Shown here: positions 3,266 through 64,000 of the stretch, piece after piece
Numbering within the stretch: position 1 is the stretch's first letter
Layout of the letters: each line of letters opens with the position of its first letter
Assembly (NCBI RefSeq): GCF_044647545.1
Contig: NZ_CP172818.1
Source of the DNA: Escherichia coli
GTDB taxonomy: Bacteria > Pseudomonadota > Gammaproteobacteria > Enterobacterales > Enterobacteriaceae
DNA: 64,000 nucleotides
Strand: one strand, 5' to 3'
Notes under the pieces: generated by a model
The model's input: only the letters and a program-made list of their open reading frames with translations
The model's database searches: none
What the model was told of the DNA's origin: nothing
Translations under genes and position numbers: made by a program

Positions 3266-3961
3266 TTACTGCCCGTAATATGCCTTCGCACCATGCTTAC
3301 GCAGATAGTGTTTATCCAGCAGCGTTTGCTGCATATCCGGTAACTGCGGCGCTAACTGACGGCAGAATATCCCCATATAAGCGACCTCTTCCAGCACGAT
3401 GGCGTTATGCACTGCATCTTCGGCATTTTTGCCCCATGCAAATGGGCCGTGAGAATGGACCAGGACGCCGGGCATTTGCGCCGCATCGATACCCTGTTTT
3501 TCGAAGGTTTCTACGATGACGTTACCGGTTTCCCACTCATATTCACCGTTGATTTCTGCGTCGGTCATTTTGCGGGTGCAGGGAATGGTGCCGTAGAAAT
3601 AGTCGGCGTGGGTGGTACCGGTTGCTGGAATCGACTGACCCGCCTGCGCCCAGATGGTGGCGTGGCGCGAGTGTGTGTGCACAATGCCGCCAATGGACGG
3701 GAATGCCTGATAGAGCAGCCGGTGAGTTGGCGTGTCGGAGGAGGGCTTTTTCGTACCTTCAACCACTTCACCGGTTTCGATACTGACCACGACCATATCG
3801 TCAGCGGTCATGATGCTGTAGTCGACGCCGGAAGGTTTGATCACCAGGACGCCGCGCCCGCGATCAACGGCGCTGACGTTACCCCAGGTGAGCGTGACCA
3901 GGTTGTGTTTTGGCAGCGCCAGGTTGGCTTCTAATACCTGGCGTTTGAGATCTTCTAACAT
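3266..3961 (-). CDS. araD: L-ribulose-5-phosphate 4-epimerase
   Basis: 231-aa ORF, class II aldolase-like; last gene of araBAD. Confidence 0.95.
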
Positions 3962-3974
3962 GTTGACTCCTTCG

Positions 3975-4138
3975 TGCCGGATGCGCTTTGCTTATCCGGC
4001 CTACAAAATCGCAGCGTGTAGGCCTGATAAACTCGAAAATTTATCGGTCAAAATGCATACCGCGCTCGCATCAGGCGGTGAATGCCGGATGCGCTTTGCT
4101 TATCCGGCCTACAAAATCGCAGCGTGTAGGCCTGATAA
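3975..4138. repeat. REP/BIME-type palindromic units in the araA–araD intergenic region, including a 56-bp perfect direct repeat
   Basis: tgccggatgcgctttgcttatccggcctacaaaatcgcagcgtgtaggcctgataa occurs at 3975..4030 and again at 4083..4138; the gccggatgcg...cgcatcaggc motifs are typical REP. Confidence 0.8.
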
Positions 4139-4183
4139 GACGCGTCAGCGTCGCATCAGGCGTTACATACCTGATGCGGCTAC

Positions 4184-5686
4184 TTAGCGACGAAATCCGT
4201 AATACACTTCGTTCCAGCGCAGCGCGTCTTTAAACGCTGGCAGGCGGGTATCGTTATCAATCACTGTGATTTCAATGTCGTGCATCTCGGCGAACTGGCG
4301 CATATCGTTGAGGTTCAGCGCATGGCTGAAAACGGTATGGTGCGCGCCACCAGCGAGGATCCACGCTTCGGAAGCAGTTGGCAGATCCGGTTGCGCTTTC
4401 CACAGCGCATTCGCCACCGGCAGTTTCGGCAGGGAGTGCGGTGTTTTCACCGTGTCGATGCAGTTAACCAGCAGACGGTAACGATCGCCGAGATCAATCA
4501 AGCTGGCGACAATCGCTGGGCCGGTTTGGGTATTGAAGATCAGGCGGGCAGGATCGTCTTTACCGCCAATACCGAGGTGTTGAACGTCGAGGATCGGTTT
4601 CTCTTCTACGGCGATCGACGGACAGACTTCCAGCATATGGGAGCCGAGCACCAGGTCATTACCTTTTTCGAAGTGGTAAGTGTAGTCCTCCATAAAGGAG
4701 GTGCCGCCCTGCAGACCGGTTGACATCACCTTCATGATGCGAAGCAGGGCGGCAGTTTTCCAGTCGCCTTCGCCCGCAAAGCCGTAGCCCTGCTGCATCA
4801 GACGCTGTACGGCCAGACCAGGAAGCTGCTTCAGACCGTGCAAATCTTCAAAGGTGGTGGTGAACGCGTGGAAGCCACCTTGTTCCAGGAAACGCTTCAT
4901 CCCCAGCTCAATACGCGCCGCTTCCAGCACGTTCTGTCGTTTTTCGCCGTGGATTTGTGTCGCAGGCGTCATGGTGTAGCAGCTTTCGTACTCATCGACC
5001 AGCGCGTTAACATCGCCATCGCTGATGGAGTTCACTACCTGCACCAGATCGCCAACCGCCCAGGTATTGACGGAGAAACCGAACTTGATCTGTGCGGCAA
5101 CTTTATCGCCATCGGTGACCGCCACTTCACGCATGTTATCGCCAAAACGGCAGACTTTCAGATGACGGGTATCCTGTTTAGATACCGCCTGACGCATCCA
5201 GGAGCCGATACGCTCATGTGCTTGTTTATCCTGCCAGTGACCGGTAACGACGGCATGTTGCTGACGCATACGCGCGCCGATGAAGCCGAACTCGCGACCG
5301 CCATGCGCGGTCTGGTTCAGGTTCATAAAGTCCATGTCGATGCTGTCCCACGGCAGCGCCGCGTTGAACTGGGTGTGGAATTGCAGCAACGGTTTGTTGA
5401 GCATGGTCAGGCCGTTGATCCACATTTTGGCCGGGGAGAAGGTGTGCAGCCACACCACCAGACCAGCGCAACGATCGTCGTAATTCGCGTCACGGCAAAT
5501 AGCGGTGATTTCATCCGGCGTGGTGCCCAGCGGTTTCAGCACCAGTTTGCAGGGCAGTTTCGCTTCCGTATTCAGCGCATTAACGACGTGCTCGGCATGT
5601 TGGGTGACCTGACGCAGGGTTTCCGGGCCATACAGATGCTGGCTGCCAATTACAAACCACACTTCATAATTATCAAAAATCGTCAT
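4184..5686 (-). CDS. araA: L-arabinose isomerase
   Basis: 500-aa [23 protein letters not shown]... Confidence 0.95.
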
Positions 5687-8699: not shown

Positions 8700-9464
8700 A
8701 TGCAAGCATTGCTGGAACACTTTATTACCCAATCCACCGTGTATTCATTGATGGCGGTGGTGTTGGTGGCCTTTCTGGAGTCGCTGGCGCTGGTCGGTTT
8801 GATTTTACCCGGTACGGTGCTAATGGCGGGACTGGGGGCGCTGATTGGCAGTGGCGAGTTAAGTTTCGGGCACGCCTGGCTGGCAGGGATCGTCGGTTGC
8901 CTGCTGGGCGACTGGATCTCTTTCTGGCTGGGCTGGCGTTTTAAAAAGCCATTGCATCGCTGGTCATTTCTGAAGAAAAACAAAGCATTACTCGATAAAA
9001 CTGAACATGCGTTGCATCAACACAGCATGTTCACCATTCTGGTCGGTCGCTTTGTTGGCCCGACGCGTCCGCTGGTGCCAATGGTGGCGGGAATGCTGGA
9101 TCTCCCGGTGGCAAAATTTATTACGCCGAATATTATCGGCTGCCTGCTGTGGCCACCGTTTTACTTCCTGCCGGGGATTCTGGCGGGTGCGGCGATCGAT
9201 ATTCCTGCCGGGATGCAGAGTGGTGAGTTTAAATGGTTGCTGCTGGCGACGGCGGTATTTTTGTGGGTTGGGGGCTGGCTGTGCTGGCGGTTATGGCGCA
9301 GCGGTAAAGCGACTGACCGTTTGAGTCATTATTTGTCGCGCGGTCGTTTGTTGTGGCTGACGCCGTTGATTTCTGCCATCGGCGTGGTGGCGCTGGTGGT
9401 GTTAATTCGCCACCCGTTGATGCCGGTGTATATCGATATTTTGCGTAAAGTGGTTGGGGTTTAG
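8700..9464 (+). CDS. yabI: DedA-family inner membrane protein
   Basis: 254-aa hydrophobic ORF at the position of yabI between araC and thiQ. Confidence 0.85.
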   Translation: MQALLEHFITQSTVYSLMAVVLVAFLESLALVGLILPGTVLMAGLGALIGSGELSFGHAWLAGIVGCLLGDWISFWLGWRFKKPLHRWSFLKKNKALLDKTEHALHQHSMFTILVGRFVGPTRPLVPMVAGMLDLPVAKFITPNIIGCLLWPPFYFLPGILAGAAIDIPAGMQSGEFKWLLLATAVFLWVGGWLCWRLWRSGKATDRLSHYLSRGRLLWLTPLISAIGVVALVVLIRHPLMPVYIDILRKVVGV

Positions 9465-12925: not shown

Positions 12926-13119
12926 GGCGTTAGTGTAGTGATTTTGTTATCAACCAGCAATCATAGAGAAGGCGTATTAAAAAAGCCAATATTCGTTCAG
13001 CTATCAAGGACGTATTTGCATAGCTGGGAAGCTTTGAACCGAAAGAATCCCTTAGCACAGTCAAAATCGGTAATGCAACCTTATTGCGTGAATGACGATT
13101 TTTGACATATTCTTTCAGG

Positions 13120-13712
<593 letters not shown>

Positions 13713-13713
13713 G

Positions 13714-15369
13714 CGATGGATCCGGCGGCGCAAACCACGCTGATTTAAAATCGAACCAGCCGAGGGTGTTCATACGTAGACCGCGCATACTGCGTTGCCC
13801 CTGAATGATCAGCCAGTGGTGGATAAGCGGCACCATTGCTTTGCTGGCGACCAGTTGCTGGCACCAGTTCGCCAGGTTCATTTCGCCATTGCGCCAGCGG
13901 GCGGCGTCGGCTTGCCAGTCGATGGGAAGACAGTGTTGGAGCAGCGGCACCTCGCACAAGTGCGCGAACAGCGAAAAATCCAGCGGCAGCGTAAAGTTGG
14001 CGCTGTTAAGCCAGATATCGCTCTCGATCTCTCCTTCATGCCACTGATCGTAGCTGATCTCTTTGATTTCCAGCGTGACCTGGTGACTTGCCAGAATCTG
14101 CTGCATGATCCCGGCAATCACTCGATGCTCAATATGATCCTGATAAAAGGTCAGGGTGAGGCTTTCCAGCCCGGCGGGTTTTTCGCAATGTGTCGGACGA
14201 GCATGGTGCCAACGGGGGAGCAGTCCATAAGCCGGGAACCACAGTTGCTGGTACTGTTCCTCAGCGAAATAGACCAGATTAGTTGGAGAAAGCACATAGC
14301 TTACCCAGTCCCTGACTTGCTGATTCGCCCCGCGATGGGTGCGGCTGTCGAACAGTAAATAGTAGCAACCTTCCTCCAGGCGGCTTTCAATCTCTTTTTC
14401 CTCGCCCTGTGGCCCTTTTAGCATCAGCCCTCCGGCTGGCTCGTCGGCAATTTCCGGCAGAACCCAGACGTTAACTTCGTCGATTAATGCCCGGTAACCG
14501 AAGAAGTCATCGAATGCCTGAATTTTCAGTTGATTGGTGCTGTTGCGGATCACCGCATACGGACCGGTGCCGATGGGATGGCTGGCAAAGTTACTGAGGG
14601 TTTCCCATTCGCGCGGCAGGATCATCGCCGGAACTTGCCCCAGCAGTAACGGCAACCAGCGATCCGGCTGCGTGAGGTGGATATCCAGCGTCCAGGGCGT
14701 CGGCGATACAATTTCAGCAATATGCGAATAGAGCGGCAGCGTATTGATCCGTTTTAAAGAGGCGATCACATCGTCCATTTCCAGTTCACGACCATGATGA
14801 AAATGGACTCCTGGACGCAAAAAGAAACGCCAGTGAAGCGGTGATATTTGCTGCCAGTGGTGGGCGATGTCTGCTTCCAGTTCCCCATTTTCCTCATTTA
14901 TGCGCGTTAGCGAACTGAAGATTTGCCGGGCGATATGGGTTTCGGAACGACGCAATGCACTGCCGGGCAGCAGATTACGCAACGGACGATAGTAGAGAAC
15001 GCGCAGGATGTGCCGCCCCTGGCGGAAGCTGCGTCCCAGATGAGAAACCAACATTTGCCGCACAGCCGCTTTGTCGCCAACCAGTTGCACCAGTTGATCG
15101 ATACGATCCTGCTCCAGCAGGTCTTCCGCCCGCTGTTGCTGAAGCGCCAGCCCGGTATAGAGGAATGTCAGACGCGAGCGTTTACCGCGCCCGACTTCCG
15201 CTTCCCACGTCAGCCAGCCGCGATCCTGCATGGTGTTGAGCAGGGTGCGCATATGACGACGCGAGCAACTCAGTAACGCTGCCAGTTCGTTGAGCGTGGT
15301 CTCCTGCGATTTACCCTCGCAGCATTGCCACAGGCGGATGAACTGTTGTTGCAGACGAGCAGATGGCAT
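13714..15369 (-). CDS. sgrR: sugar-phosphate stress transcriptional regulator SgrR; 3' end uncertain because the frame runs into the low-complexity tract
   Basis: Track ORF 13660..15390 (576 aa); start set at [15 protein letters not shown]; remembered length 551 aa would place the native stop near 13714, but here the frame continues ...[22 protein letters not shown] into homopolymer sequence. Confidence 0.8.
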
Positions 15370-15436: not shown

Positions 15437-15663
15437 GATGAAGCAAGGAGGTGCCCCATGCGTCAGTTTTATCAGCACTATTTTACCGCGACAGCGAAGT
15501 TGTGCTGGTTGCGTTGGTTAAGCGTCCCACAACGATTAACTATGCTGAAGAACTGATGCAGTGGGAGGGGAGTCATTCTGACTACTGATTTGCGGACATC
15601 ATGTGTGACTGAGTATTGGTGCTAATCGCCACGCCAGCAGTGATTATTGCTGGCTTTTTTCTT
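15437..15663 (+). ncRNA. sgrS: small RNA SgrS (glucose-phosphate stress)
   Basis: Starts gatgaagcaagg 67 bp from the divergent sgrR start; conserved seed gtgtgactgagtattggtg at 15602..15620; hairpin ccagcag/ctgctgg plus T-run at 15633..15663. Confidence 0.8.
15458..15556 (+). CDS. sgrT: small protein SgrT encoded within sgrS, 32 codons here
   Basis: ATG after ggagg RBS; MRQFYQHYFTATAKLCWLRWLSVPQRLTMLKN; shorter than the 43 aa I recall for K-12. Confidence 0.6.
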   Translation: MRQFYQHYFTATAKLCWLRWLSVPQRLTMLKN

Positions 15664-15687
15664 TGGCGATTGAGCCGACGGGACAAA

Positions 15688-47881: not shown

Positions 47882-48271
47882 ATGAAAAAGCTGCAAATTG
47901 CGGTAGGTATTATTCGCAACGAGAACAATGAAATCTTTATAACCCGTCGCGCAGCAGATGCGCACATGGCGAATAAACTGGAGTTTCCCGGCGGTAAAAT
48001 TGAAATGAGCGAAACGCCGGAACAGGCGGTGGTGCGTGAACTTCAGGAAGAGGTCGGGATTACCCCACAACATTTTTCGCTATTTGAAAAACTGGAATAT
48101 GAATTCCCGGACAGGCATATAACTCTGTGGTTCTGGCTGGTCGAAAGCTGGGAAGGGGAGCCGTGGGGTAAAGAAGGGCAACCCGGTGAGTGGATGTCGC
48201 TGGTCGGTCTGAATGCCGATGATTTTCCGCCAGCCAATGAACCGGTACTTGCGAAGCTTAAGCGTCTGTAG
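47882..48271 (+). CDS. mutT: 8-oxo-dGTP diphosphatase (Nudix)
   Basis: 129-aa ORF with Nudix box GGKIEMSETPEQAVVRELQEEVGI. Confidence 0.95.
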   Translation: MKKLQIAVGIIRNENNEIFITRRAADAHMANKLEFPGGKIEMSETPEQAVVRELQEEVGITPQHFSLFEKLEYEFPDRHITLWFWLVESWEGEPWGKEGQPGEWMSLVGLNADDFPPANEPVLAKLKRL

Positions 48272-48277
48272 GTCAGA

Positions 48278-48365
48278 TAAGACGTTTTCGCCGCATCCGA
48301 CATTCGCACACGATGCCTGATGCGACGCTCCGCCCGCGTCTTATCAGGCCAGCGTCGCATCAGAC
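48278..48365. repeat. REP palindromic unit(s) in the mutT–yacG intergenic region
   Basis: Inverted motifs gcctgatgcgacgct / agcgtcgcatcaga and ggtcagataagacg / cgtcttatcaggcc. Confidence 0.75.
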
Positions 48366-48371
48366 AAAATG

Positions 48372-62417: not shown

Positions 62418-63250
62418 ATGGCTATCGAAATCAAAGTACCGGACATCGGGGCTGATGAAGTTGAAATCACCGAGATCCTGGTCAAAGTGGGCGACAAAGT
62501 TGAAGCCGAACAGTCGCTGATCACCGTAGAAGGCGACAAAGCCTCTATGGAAGTTCCGTCTCCGCAGGCGGGTATCGTTAAAGAGATCAAAGTCTCTGTT
62601 GGCGATAAAACCCAGACCGGCGCACTGATTATGATTTTCGATTCCGCCGACGGTGCAGCAGACGCTGCACCTGCTCAGGCAGAAGAGAAGAAAGAAGCAG
62701 CTCCGGCAGCAGCACCAGCGGCTGCCGCGGCAAAAGACGTTAACGTTCCGGATATCGGCAGCGACGAAGTTGAAGTGACCGAAATCCTGGTGAAAGTTGG
62801 CGATAAAGTTGAAGCTGAACAGTCGCTGATCACCGTAGAAGGCGACAAGGCTTCTATGGAAGTTCCGGCTCCGTTTGCTGGCACCGTGAAAGAGATCAAA
62901 GTGAACGTGGGTGACAAAGTGTCTACCGGCTCGCTGATTATGGTCTTCGAAGTCGCGGGTGAAGCAGGCGCGGCAGCTCCGGCGGCTAAACAGGAAGCAG
63001 CTCCGGCAGCGGCCTCTGCATCAGCAGCTGGCGTGAAAGAAGTTAACGTTCCGGATATCGGCGGTGACGAAGTTGAAGTGACCGAAGTGATGGTGAAAGT
63101 GGGCGACAAAGTTGCCGCTGAACAGTCACTGATCACCGTAGAAGGCGATAAAGCTTCTATGGAAGTTCCGGCTCCGTTTGCAGGCGTCGTGAAGGAACTG
63201 AAAGTCAACGTTGGCGATAAAGTGAAAACTGGCTCGCTGATTATGATCTT
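62418..63250 (+). repeat. three tandem ~300-bp lipoyl-domain repeats with Ala/Pro-rich linkers inside aceF
   Basis: Near-identical segments ...gatcaccgtagaaggcgacaa(a/g)gc(c/t)tctatggaagttccg... at about 62500, 62800 and 63100, each carrying the lipoyl-lysine DKASME motif. Confidence 0.9.
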
Positions 63251-64000
63251 CGAAGTTGAAGGCGCAGCGCCTGCGGCAGCTCCTGCGAAACAGGAAGCGG
63301 CAGCGCCGGCTCCGGCAGCAAAAGCTGAAGCTCCGGCAGCAGCTCCGGCTGCGAAAGCGGAAGGCAAATCTGAATTTGCTGAAAACGACGCTTACGTTCA
63401 CGCGACTCCGCTGATCCGCCGTCTGGCACGCGAGTTTGGCGTTAACCTGGCGAAAGTGAAGGGCACTGGCCGTAAAGGTCGTATCCTGCGCGAAGACGTT
63501 CAGGCTTACGTGAAAGAAGCTATCAAACGTGCAGAAGCGGCTCCGGCGGTGACTGGCGGCGGTATCCCAGGCATGCTGCCGTGGCCGAAAGTGGACTTCA
63601 GCAAGTTTGGTGAAATCGAAGAAGTGGAACTGGGCCGTATCCAGAAAATTTCTGGTGCGAACCTGAGCCGTAACTGGGTGATGATCCCGCATGTTACCCA
63701 CTTCGACAAAACCGATATCACCGAGCTGGAAGCGTTCCGTAAACAGCAGAACGAAGAAGCGGCGAAACGTAAGCTGGATGTGAAGATAACCCCAGTTGTC
63801 TTCATCATGAAAGCCGTTGCTGCAGCTCTTGAGCAGATGCCTCGCTTCAACAGTTCGCTGTCGGAAGACGGTCAGCGTCTGACCCTGAAGAAATACATCA
63901 ACATCGGTGTGGCGGTGGATACCCCGAACGGTCTGGTTGTTCCGGTATTCAAAGACGTCAACAAGAAAGGCATCATCGAGCTGTCTCGCGAGCTGATGAC
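62418..64000 (+). CDS. aceF: dihydrolipoyllysine acetyltransferase (PDH E2), 5' portion; continues past window end
   Basis: My translation [46 protein letters not shown]...; three lipoyl domains, then the E3-binding domain and the start of the catalytic domain. Confidence 0.95.

What the first reader, a model, noticed from the sequence alone, without database searches (positions are those of the whole stretch)
3975..4138. Perfect 56-bp direct repeat within a REP/BIME cluster between araA and araD
Two identical 56-bp units (3975..4030 and 4083..4138), each containing REP-like palindromes, lie in the araA–araD spacer. This intergenic region is about 222 bp here, which seems about 60 bp shorter than I recall for MG1655, consistent with REP copy-number variation between strains.
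Basis: partly seen in the sequence, partly recalled or inferred. Interest (0 to 1): 0.2.

Follow-up and report, generated by a model that had tools for sequence, protein, structure and literature searches.

The report
Known REP/BIME array between araA and araD
The 56-bp repeat is the intact part of two neighbouring units of a well-known E. coli palindromic-repeat array whose copy number differs between strains, and the one unusual feature of this copy is most likely a sequence-quality defect.

Summary
Two identical 56-nt copies (3975-4030, 4083-4138) lie in the 222-bp araD-araA spacer.

They belong to a canonical BIME-2-type array. Its 85-bp unit is a REP, a 13-nt linker, an inverted REP and a short linker. 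The array is laddered across Escherichia: 1 unit (114 bp), 2 (199), 3 (284, MG1655) or 4 (369).

This is already known. The MG1655 araD-A BIME was used as a TnpA_REP substrate, and the same paper states that BIME-2 copy number varies between strains (PMC3333891).

The new point is that 222 bp is off the ladder. Compared with near-identical genomes, which carry the 199-bp spacer, 12 nt at the apex of the first unit's second REP is replaced by 35 nt (4031-4065). That segment was found in no other sequence searched.

The window has other private, non-biological patches. The largest is about 590 nt of homopolymer junk at ~13.1-13.7 kb, a degraded copy of espY2. The 35-nt patch is therefore probably an artefact.

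Interest is low.

The parts
3266..3961 (-). araD (L-ribulose-5-phosphate 4-epimerase), the gene downstream of the spacer in the araBAD transcript
   Evidence: ORF; TIGR00760 araD, 445 bits against a cut-off of 389
3962..3974 (-). 13-nt leader shared by the 114/199/284/369-bp alleles. It carries the araD Shine-Dalgarno sequence (mRNA CGAAGGAGUCAAC-AUG), with AGGAG starting 4 nt after the last REP.
   Evidence: the same 13 nt in all those alleles; SD identified by reading the sequence
3975..4030 (.). Copy 1 of the 56-nt perfect direct repeat (the start of BIME unit 1)
   Evidence: family D1
3976..4004 (+). REP of the GCCGGAT type (y-like by my recollection of the consensus), ending in CTAC on the + strand
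   Evidence: foot motif at 3992-4004; hairpin -8.3 kcal/mol, z -3.2
4005..4017 (.). 13-nt tail-to-tail linker AAAATCGCAGCGT (short 'S'-type linker)
4018..4076 (+). Second REP of unit 1 (GCCTGAT type, z2-like), disrupted. The GTAG foot and 7-bp outer stem are kept, but the upper stem and loop are replaced.
   Evidence: foot at 4018-4030; fold z -0.7, against z -5.0 for the intact version in relatives (L002:757-792)
4031..4065 (.). Private 35-nt segment ACTCGAAAATTTATCGGTCAAAATGCATACCGCGC, replacing GACGCGTCGGCG of the closest relatives. Probably a sequence artefact.
   Evidence: replacement; not found in E. coli genomes, species representatives or metagenomes; unique in the window
4077..4082 (.). 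Head-to-head linker GGTGAA between unit 1 and unit 2
4083..4138 (.). Copy 2 of the 56-nt perfect direct repeat (the start of the terminal 101-nt unit)
   Evidence: family D1
4084..4112 (+). REP, GCCGGAT type, identical to 3976-4004
4113..4125 (.). 13-nt tail-to-tail linker, second copy
4126..4161 (+). Intact REP of the GCCTGAT type (z2-like), with GTAG foot
   Evidence: hairpin -12.8 kcal/mol, z -5.8
4152..4178 (.). Terminal hairpin (9-bp stem) formed by the head of the last REP and a truncated REP head. On the mRNA it begins 5 nt after the araA stop codon.
   Evidence: D2/I1; -9.4 kcal/mol, z -5.3; in other Escherichia species this position reads TGCCGGATGCGGCTAA, a truncated REP head
4184..5686 (-). 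araA (L-arabinose isomerase), the gene upstream of the spacer in the transcript
   Evidence: ORF; NF002795, 898 bits against a cut-off of 622

Best explanation
The 56-bp repeat is the undisturbed part of two adjacent units of a BIME-2-type tandem array of REP palindromes in the araA-araD intercistronic spacer.

Anatomy: a 13-nt leader with the araD ribosome-binding site, then n internal 85-bp units (a GCCGGAT-type REP, a 13-nt linker, an inverted GCCTGAT-type REP and a 6-7-nt linker), then a 101-bp terminal unit. This strain's lineage has n = 1, i.e. 2 units and 4 REPs. MG1655 has 3 units and 6 REPs.

Shown here: copy number changes in whole 85-bp steps.

Inferred: these changes arise by unequal recombination or slippage between the near-identical units, and/or by TnpA_REP-mediated strand transfer. 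The latter was demonstrated in vitro on the MG1655 version of this very BIME.

Function, inferred from established knowledge of REPs and not tested here: in the araBAD mRNA the REP stem-loops act as barriers to 3'-5' exonucleases. This stabilises the upstream araB-araA segment and sets the araBA:araD expression ratio. On DNA, BIME-2 arrays are gyrase binding and cleavage sites.

The only thing that makes this copy differ from its near-identical relatives is a 12-nt to 35-nt replacement at the apex of one REP (4031-4065). This is most likely a local sequence-quality artefact rather than biology (about 0.8 for this sub-claim).
For: Repeat and gene context.

Modular 85-bp ladder: MG1655 284 bp, FDAARGOS_497 199 bp, NRG 857C 114 bp. 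E. albertii has 114 bp, Escherichia sp. MOD1-EC7003 has 284 bp, and the record titled 'Escherichia coli strain SCPM-O-B-8794' has 369 bp.

Survey of 59 evenly spread complete genomes: 284 bp x22, 199 x14, 168/167 x17, 114 x5, 280 x1, and none at 222.

REP features: GTAG/CTAC feet at 4 sites, with 0.12 expected by chance, and significant hairpins. The mRNA-strand fold of the whole spacer is -95.5 kcal/mol, z -5.1.

Literature: BIME-2 is defined as z2 + y in tandem copies whose number at a locus varies between strains, and the MG1655 araD-A BIME is cleaved and recombined by TnpA_REP (PMC3333891).

Artefact sub-claim: the window is base-for-base identical to FDAARGOS_497 over 64 kb except for a few patches. 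The 30 best-listed genomes give the same two-piece, 97%-coverage pattern as FDAARGOS_497, 29 of them with an identical record span of 20,241 bp. The 35-nt segment is not found in 5,426 E. coli genomes, in 100,044 species-representative genomes, or in 241 M metagenome records. The window holds about 590 nt of homopolymer junk at ~13,129-13,716, which is a collinear degraded copy of the real espY2 region: alignment score 139, against a shuffle maximum of 94.5, a block-shuffle maximum of 46.5 and 9 for the reversed sequence; runs reach 30 nt, against at most 8 elsewhere in the window. A further cluster of eight deleted bases at 15,648-15,683 matches no genome better than the relatives' version, 95.0%.
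Against: The function in mRNA stability, gyrase binding and the mechanism of copy-number change were not tested here. They rest on literature about REPs in general and on in-vitro work with the MG1655 allele.

The y/z2 typing rests on my recollection of the consensus sequences, because the paper's figure is not held as text.

For the artefact sub-claim, the other bad patches are deletion-biased whereas this one is a net +23-nt gain. Its resemblance to a degraded piece of the BIME unit is only suggestive (63 of 2,000 shuffles score as well). Neither the raw reads nor the source record could be traced. A real private mutation is not excluded.
Confidence: 0.9

Rival explanations
1. The 35-nt segment is a genuine strain-specific mutation. 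In this reading it is an insertion or replacement at the apex of a z2-type REP, produced for example by aberrant TnpA_REP cleavage and rejoining, by template switching during hairpin replication, or as the remnant of a REP-targeting insertion sequence. The result would be a 'split' REP and a real 222-bp allele.
For: The change sits exactly at the top of a REP hairpin and leaves the 7-bp outer stem and GTAG foot intact. REPs are known targets of TnpA_REP and of several IS elements (PMC3333891 introduction). The window's only private SNP (YabI W57G) also occurs on one independent short Logan contig, so not every private difference need be an error.
Against: The segment has no match anywhere: E. 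coli genomes, species representatives or metagenomes. This argues against an IS remnant or gene conversion from another locus. The best-matching genomes all carry the plain 199-bp allele. The window demonstrably contains non-biological patches. The segment's best resemblance is to the unit's own sequence with five single-base deletions, which is not what a one-step natural event would produce.
Confidence: 0.12
2. The 56-bp repeat is a recent tandem duplication private to this strain, not an old repeat family.
For: The two copies are 100% identical.
Against: The same two-unit allele occurs in 14 of 59 sampled genomes, including O157:H7 strains. Arrays of 1-4 units occur at the same locus in E. 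albertii and two other Escherichia representative genomes. The units carry dispersed REP motifs.
Confidence: 0.02
3. The array encodes a stand-alone small RNA of the naRNA4 (REP325) kind, or acts as an internal terminator or promoter of the operon.
For: Weak Rfam matches to naRNA4 at 4129-4202 (35.7 bits) and 4021-4109 (31.8 bits).
Against: Both scores are far below the family's gathering score of 59.5. The similarity is explained by shared REP content. No sigma-70-like promoter and no intrinsic-terminator-like site is found on either strand in 3800-4350.
Confidence: 0.03

Closest known systems
araD-araA BIME of E. coli K-12 MG1655 (source of substrates B315/B316 in Ton-Hoang et al. 2012, NAR 40:3596, PMC3333891)
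   Same: It is the orthologous locus. The 13-nt leader, the 85-bp unit architecture and the 101-bp terminal unit are the same, and the units differ by only a few substitutions.
   Different: MG1655 has 3 units (284 bp, 6 REPs) and the window has 2 (4 REPs). The window also carries the private 12-nt to 35-nt replacement in the second REP.
BIME-2 family (y + z2 REPs in tandem copies; Bachellier et al. 1994 and 1997, as summarised in PMC3333891)
   Same: Two REP types alternate in inverse orientation. Linkers are short. Copies are tandem, well conserved within a locus, and vary in number between strains.
   Different: Nothing essential differs. The GCCGGAT-type REP here has a short upper stem (29 nt). 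The y/z2 assignment is from memory of the consensus sequences.
199-bp araD-araA allele of E. coli FDAARGOS_497, strain 'ST648', IMT16316, ECONIH1 and relatives
   Same: Flanking genes are 100% identical (3,217 bp of araA-araB). The spacer is identical apart from the patch.
   Different: These strains have an intact second REP (GACGCGTCGGCG apex) and an on-ladder length of 199 bp.
naRNA4 / REP325 (Rfam RF02564)
   Same: It is also built from REP hairpins, hence the weak covariance-model matches.
   Different: The scores of 35.7 and 31.8 bits are well below the gathering score of 59.5. It is a different locus, and there is no evidence of a separate transcript here.

Membership tests
REP (palindromic unit) | Imperfect palindrome of 30-40 nt able to form a hairpin | tested here: met
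   3975-4004 and 4083-4112 fold at -8.3 kcal/mol (z -3.2), and 4126-4161 at -12.8 kcal/mol (z -5.8). The fourth REP (4018-4076) is disrupted (z -0.7), while its intact counterpart in relatives gives z -5.0.
REP (palindromic unit) | Conserved GTAG tetranucleotide 5' of the hairpin foot (CTAC on the other strand) | tested here: met
   TTATCMGGCCTAC found at 3992-4004(+), 4018-4030(-), 4100-4112(+) and 4126-4138(-); 4 found against 0.12 expected. Definition taken from PMC3333891.
REP (palindromic unit) | Extragenic, inside a transcription unit or at its 3' end | tested here: met
   All four lie in the 222-bp spacer between the araA stop and the araD start, within the same-strand araBAD cluster.
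REP (palindromic unit) | Dispersed, high-copy family in the genome | tested here: met
   the 422-nt query hits a median of 9 places per E. coli genome by megablast (up to 19). A second REP cluster lies in the window at ~48,268-48,366.
BIME-2 | Two REP types (y and z2) alternating in inverse orientation with short linkers, and no long L linker | tested here: met
   decomposition: GCCGGAT-type and GCCTGAT-type REPs alternate, with a tail-to-tail linker of 13 nt and a head-to-head linker of 6-7 nt. Naming them y and z2 rests on my memory of the consensus sequences.
BIME-2 | Tandem copies, well conserved within a locus, with copy number variable between strains | tested here: met
   1, 2, 3 and 4 units found, i.e. 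114, 199, 284 and 369 bp. Units within one array share linker variants that differ between species.
BIME-2 | Bound and cleaved by DNA gyrase in vivo | not testable with these tools
   Known for BIME-2 in general (Espeli & Boccard 1997, cited in PMC3333891).
TnpA_REP (RAYT) substrate | Cleavage at CT sites in iREP and linker, and strand transfer by TnpA_REP | not testable with these tools
   Shown in vitro for the MG1655 araD-A BIME. Not testable for this allele, and no tnpA_REP gene lies in the window.
naRNA4 (Rfam RF02564) | Covariance-model score at or above the gathering threshold (59.5 bits) | tested here: not met
   best scores are 35.7 and 31.8 bits.
Intrinsic terminator | G+C-rich hairpin followed by a T run | tested here: not met
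   0 terminator-like sites in 3800-4350 on either strand.

The most novel reading that the evidence does not exclude
The 35-nt segment at 4031-4065 is real: a de novo sequence inserted at the apex of a z2-type REP in one E. coli strain. It would leave a split REP with only its outer stem. That would be a natural example of REP hairpin tips acting as sites of untemplated or aberrantly templated DNA gain, for instance through TnpA_REP or hairpin processing.
Probability: 0.1. Interest if true: 0.25.

Novelty: already known. Interest (0 to 1): 0.07.

Why it matters
As biology it matters little. BIME-2 copy-number polymorphism is textbook knowledge for E. coli, and this exact locus has served as a model substrate for the REP-associated transposase.

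Two points have practical value. First, the araA-araD spacer gives a clean 85-bp length ladder (114, 199, 284, 369 bp, plus a 168-bp class that carries a second dispersed repeat), which tracks lineage and could serve as a simple typing marker. Second, the check exposed stretches of degraded, non-biological sequence in this window. Any other first-stage finding in this window that rests on a private difference from related genomes should be treated with suspicion.

Tried and rejected
1. Origin of the 35-nt segment. I ran blastn against 5,426 E. coli genomes, an exact scan of species-representative genomes with a 52-nt pattern, an exact scan of metagenome contigs with the 30-nt core, and a search of the window itself with up to 3 mismatches. 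Nothing was found, so gene conversion from another BIME or an IS remnant is not supported.

2. Is the segment a degraded copy of the BIME unit? The local alignment gives TTATCGGTCAAAATGCA = TTATCCGGCCTACAAAATCGCA with 5 deletions, but 63 of 2,000 shuffles score as well. This is suggestive only. I could not decide whether the true allele is 2 units or a collapsed 3 units.

3. Independent confirmation through the private YabI W57G variant. It is carried by only one 1.2-kb Logan contig, which does not reach the spacer.

4. Tracing the source record through the chimeric SgrR-junk protein. It is not on record.

5. Bachellier et al. 1997 (PMC1207841) is not held. Supplementary files of PMC3333891 are not held, so the B315/B316 oligo sequences could not be mapped onto the unit.

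6. Literature searches for REP effects on araBAD mRNA or on translation returned nothing specific.

7. Tandem Repeats Finder reports nothing, because fewer than two full copies exist at period 108.

8. Small-RNA, promoter and terminator readings were rejected.

Full report
OBSERVATION

The 56-nt sequence TGCCGGATGCGCTTTGCTTATCCGGCCTACAAAATCGCAGCGTGTAGGCCTGATAA occurs at 3975-4030 and at 4083-4138, 100% identical, 108 nt apart start to start. The flanking ORFs are araD (3266-3961) and araA (4184-5686), both on the minus strand. polB lies beyond araD and araB beyond araA; all four were identified with NCBIfam equivalog models above their cut-offs. A perfect 56-nt repeat is far beyond chance in 64 kb.

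WHAT THE REPEAT IS

Comparison with complete E. coli genomes shows that the spacer is modular. It consists of:
- a 13-nt leader, GTTGACTCCTTCG, which on the transcribed strand reads CGAAGGAGUCAAC-AUG and carries the araD ribosome-binding site;
- n internal units of 85 bp;
- a terminal unit of 101 bp.

Each unit contains a 29-nt REP of the GCCGGAT type ending in CTAC, a 13-nt linker (AAAATCGCAGCGT), an inverted 36-nt REP of the GCCTGAT type beginning with GTAG, and a 6-7-nt linker.

Copy number in individual strains:
- NRG 857C has 1 unit (114 bp, 2 REP feet).
- FDAARGOS_497 has 2 units (199 bp, 4 feet).
- MG1655 has 3 units (284 bp, 6 feet).

The REP foot motif occurs four times in the window's spacer, against 0.12 expected by chance. 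The individual REPs fold into significant hairpins. The whole spacer folds strongly as RNA on the transcribed strand (-95.5 kcal/mol, z -5.1). The 56-nt 'unit' of the finding is simply the first 56 nt of the real 85-nt unit.

POPULATION AND SPECIES CONTEXT

A flank-only query (150 nt of araD joined to 150 nt of araA) was sampled at even steps through 5,398 matching genomes. It gave the following spacer lengths.

| Spacer length (bp) | Genomes of 59 |
|---|---|
| 284 | 22 |
| 199 | 14 |
| 168 or 167 | 17 |
| 114 | 5 |
| 280 | 1 |
| 222 | 0 |

The 168-bp class is one unit plus a 57-nt G/C-rich element next to the araD start. That element is itself a dispersed repeat, with a median of 12 places per genome.

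At the same locus, E. albertii has 1 unit (114 bp), Escherichia sp. MOD1-EC7003 has 3 units (284 bp), and the species-representative record titled 'Escherichia coli strain SCPM-O-B-8794' has 4 units (369 bp). The array is therefore older than E. coli, and its length follows 114 + 85n. Linker variants are shared among the units of one genome but differ between species, which indicates homogenisation within arrays.

COMPARISON WITH WHAT IS KNOWN

Ton-Hoang et al. 2012 (PMC3333891) define REPs as 30-40-nt imperfect palindromes with a conserved GTAG at the foot. They define BIME-2 as tandem copies of z2 and y REPs with short linkers. They state that the copies at one locus are well conserved and that their number at a given locus varies between strains, citing Bachellier et al. 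1997.

They also used the MG1655 araD-A BIME as their in-vitro substrate (B315, B316). TnpA_REP cleaves it at an iREP site and a linker site and recombines it into longer products.

Every defining feature I could test is met here. The phenomenon, at this very locus, is already described. The Rfam matches to naRNA4 (35.7 and 31.8 bits against a gathering score of 59.5) only reflect shared REP content. No promoter-like or intrinsic-terminator-like site is present.

THE ONE ODDITY

A length of 222 bp is off the ladder. The window's araA-araB region is 100.0% identical over 3,217 bp to a group of genomes that includes FDAARGOS_497, strain 'ST648', IMT16316 and ECONIH1. These carry the 199-bp allele.

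A base-by-base comparison of the whole window with FDAARGOS_497 shows no difference in the spacer except one. At the apex of the second REP of unit 1, GACGCGTCGGCG (12 nt) is replaced by ACTCGAAAATTTATCGGTCAAAATGCATACCGCGC (35 nt, 4031-4065). This single change:
- cuts the repeat identity at 56 nt (in the relatives it runs 64 nt perfect and about 85 nt overall);
- lengthens the period from 85 to 108;
- abolishes the upper stem of that REP (z -0.7 against -5.0).

The 35-nt segment was found nowhere else. It is missing from 5,426 complete E. coli genomes, from 100,044 species-representative genomes, from 241 million metagenome records, and from the rest of the window.

WHY I THINK THE ODDITY IS AN ARTEFACT

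The window is identical to its relatives over about 50 kb with zero substitutions. Its few differences are clustered and odd.
- A single-base deletion at 12,962 is followed by a trail of 1-2-nt deletions at 13,080-13,128.
- About 590 nt of A/G/C homopolymer runs then follow (runs up to 30 nt, against a maximum of 8 elsewhere). They stand in place of the 835 bp that carry espY2 and the 3' end of sgrR in the relatives. Register with the real genome is regained at ~13,717.
- This junk aligns collinearly to the real sequence far better than any control: score 139, against a shuffle maximum of 94.5, a block-shuffle maximum of 46.5 and 9 for the reversed sequence. It is therefore a degraded rendition of the true sequence, not foreign DNA.
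- A further cluster of eight deleted bases within 40 nt at 15,648-15,683 is also private. The best of 2,157 matching genomes is 95.0% identical, which is just the relatives' version.
- The 30 best-listed relatives give the same two-piece, 97%-coverage pattern as FDAARGOS_497, 29 of them with an identical record span.

Natural divergence produces scattered substitutions, not multi-indel patches in otherwise identical DNA. The 35-nt patch is a third such private patch. Part of it resembles the unit's own sequence with five single-base deletions, although only at p of about 0.03.

I put about 0.8 on artefact and about 0.1 on a real private mutation. I could not trace the raw data or the source record, so this remains an inference. 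I also cannot tell whether the true allele has 2 units, as in all the relatives, or a collapsed third unit.

HOW IT MOST LIKELY WORKS

Shown here:
- the anatomy of the array;
- its strong hairpin potential on the mRNA strand;
- its position, with the first hairpin starting 5 nt after the araA stop codon and the last REP ending 4 nt before the araD Shine-Dalgarno sequence;
- gain and loss in whole 85-bp units.

Inferred from established knowledge of REPs and BIMEs (my own knowledge, plus the introduction of PMC3333891):
- In the polycistronic araBAD mRNA the stem-loops impede 3'-5' exonucleases. They thereby stabilise the upstream araB-araA segment relative to araD.
- Their closeness to the araA stop and the araD ribosome-binding site could also modulate translation.
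- On DNA, BIME-2 arrays bind DNA gyrase.
- Copy-number change probably arises by unequal recombination or replication slippage between near-identical units, and/or by TnpA_REP strand transfer, as demonstrated in vitro for the MG1655 allele.

None of these functions was tested here.

VERDICT

The feature is an already-known kind at an already-studied locus, so interest is low. The most useful outcome is the warning that this window contains degraded sequence patches.

Noticed in passing
window 13,080-13,717 (core 13,129-13,716): About 590 nt of homopolymer-rich junk (55% A; runs up to 30 nt, against at most 8 elsewhere) stands where near-identical genomes have 835 bp carrying espY2 (T3SS effector) and the 3' end of sgrR. 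It is a collinear, degraded rendition of the real sequence and is preceded by a trail of 1-2-nt deletions starting at 12,962. It is non-biological or very low-quality sequence. sgrR gains a spurious C-terminus (...[13 protein letters not shown]).
   Followed up: yes
window 15,648-15,683: A cluster of eight deleted bases within about 40 nt, lying between sgrT and the leuD 3' end, relative to the near-identical genomes. No E. coli genome matches the window's version better than 95.0%, so it is private to the window. It is probably another low-quality patch.
   Followed up: partly
window 48,268-48,366 (private change at 48,330-48,331): A second REP cluster lies in the mutT-yacG spacer. Its central REP has a private CC insertion in the loop (GACGCTCCGCCCGCGTC against GACGCTGCCCGCGTC in the relatives).
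   Followed up: no
window 8868 (yabI, 8700-9464, + strand): This is the only private substitution in 64 kb, G against T, giving YabI W57G. That exact protein is on record on only one 1.2-kb Logan contig (ERR13956037; L012), so it is either a very rare real variant or an error.
   Followed up: partly
L004:711-767 (E. coli GE3 and roughly 29% of E. coli genomes): The 168-bp araD-araA allele has one BIME unit plus a 57-nt G/C-rich element (…CCCTCACCCCGGCCCTCTCCCCAAAGGGGCGAGGGG…) inserted between the araD ribosome-binding site and the first REP. The element is a dispersed repeat, with a median of 12 places per genome. From memory it resembles the 'BoxC' family; I did not verify this.
   Followed up: partly
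L009, L010, L011 (araD-araA spacers of E. albertii, the record titled 'E. coli SCPM-O-B-8794', and Escherichia sp. MOD1-EC7003): Within each genome all units share the same linker variant (for example AACATCGGAACG, AAAACCGGAACG, or AAAATCGCAGCG in E. coli), while the variants differ between species. The tandem units are being homogenised or re-amplified within lineages (concerted evolution).
   Followed up: partly
H103 (NZ_CP031215.1), araD-araA spacer: A rare 280-bp spacer, 4 bp short of the 3-unit ladder step, seen in 1 of 59 sampled genomes.
   Followed up: no
window 62,433-63,298: Internal direct repeats of about 570 bp at about 80% identity inside aceF. From background knowledge these are the repeated lipoyl domains of the E2 subunit, which is ordinary.
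   Followed up: no
(population level): 67 of the 5,426 complete E. coli genomes give no megablast match to the araA-araB region, so a small minority may lack these genes or carry disrupted copies.
   Followed up: no
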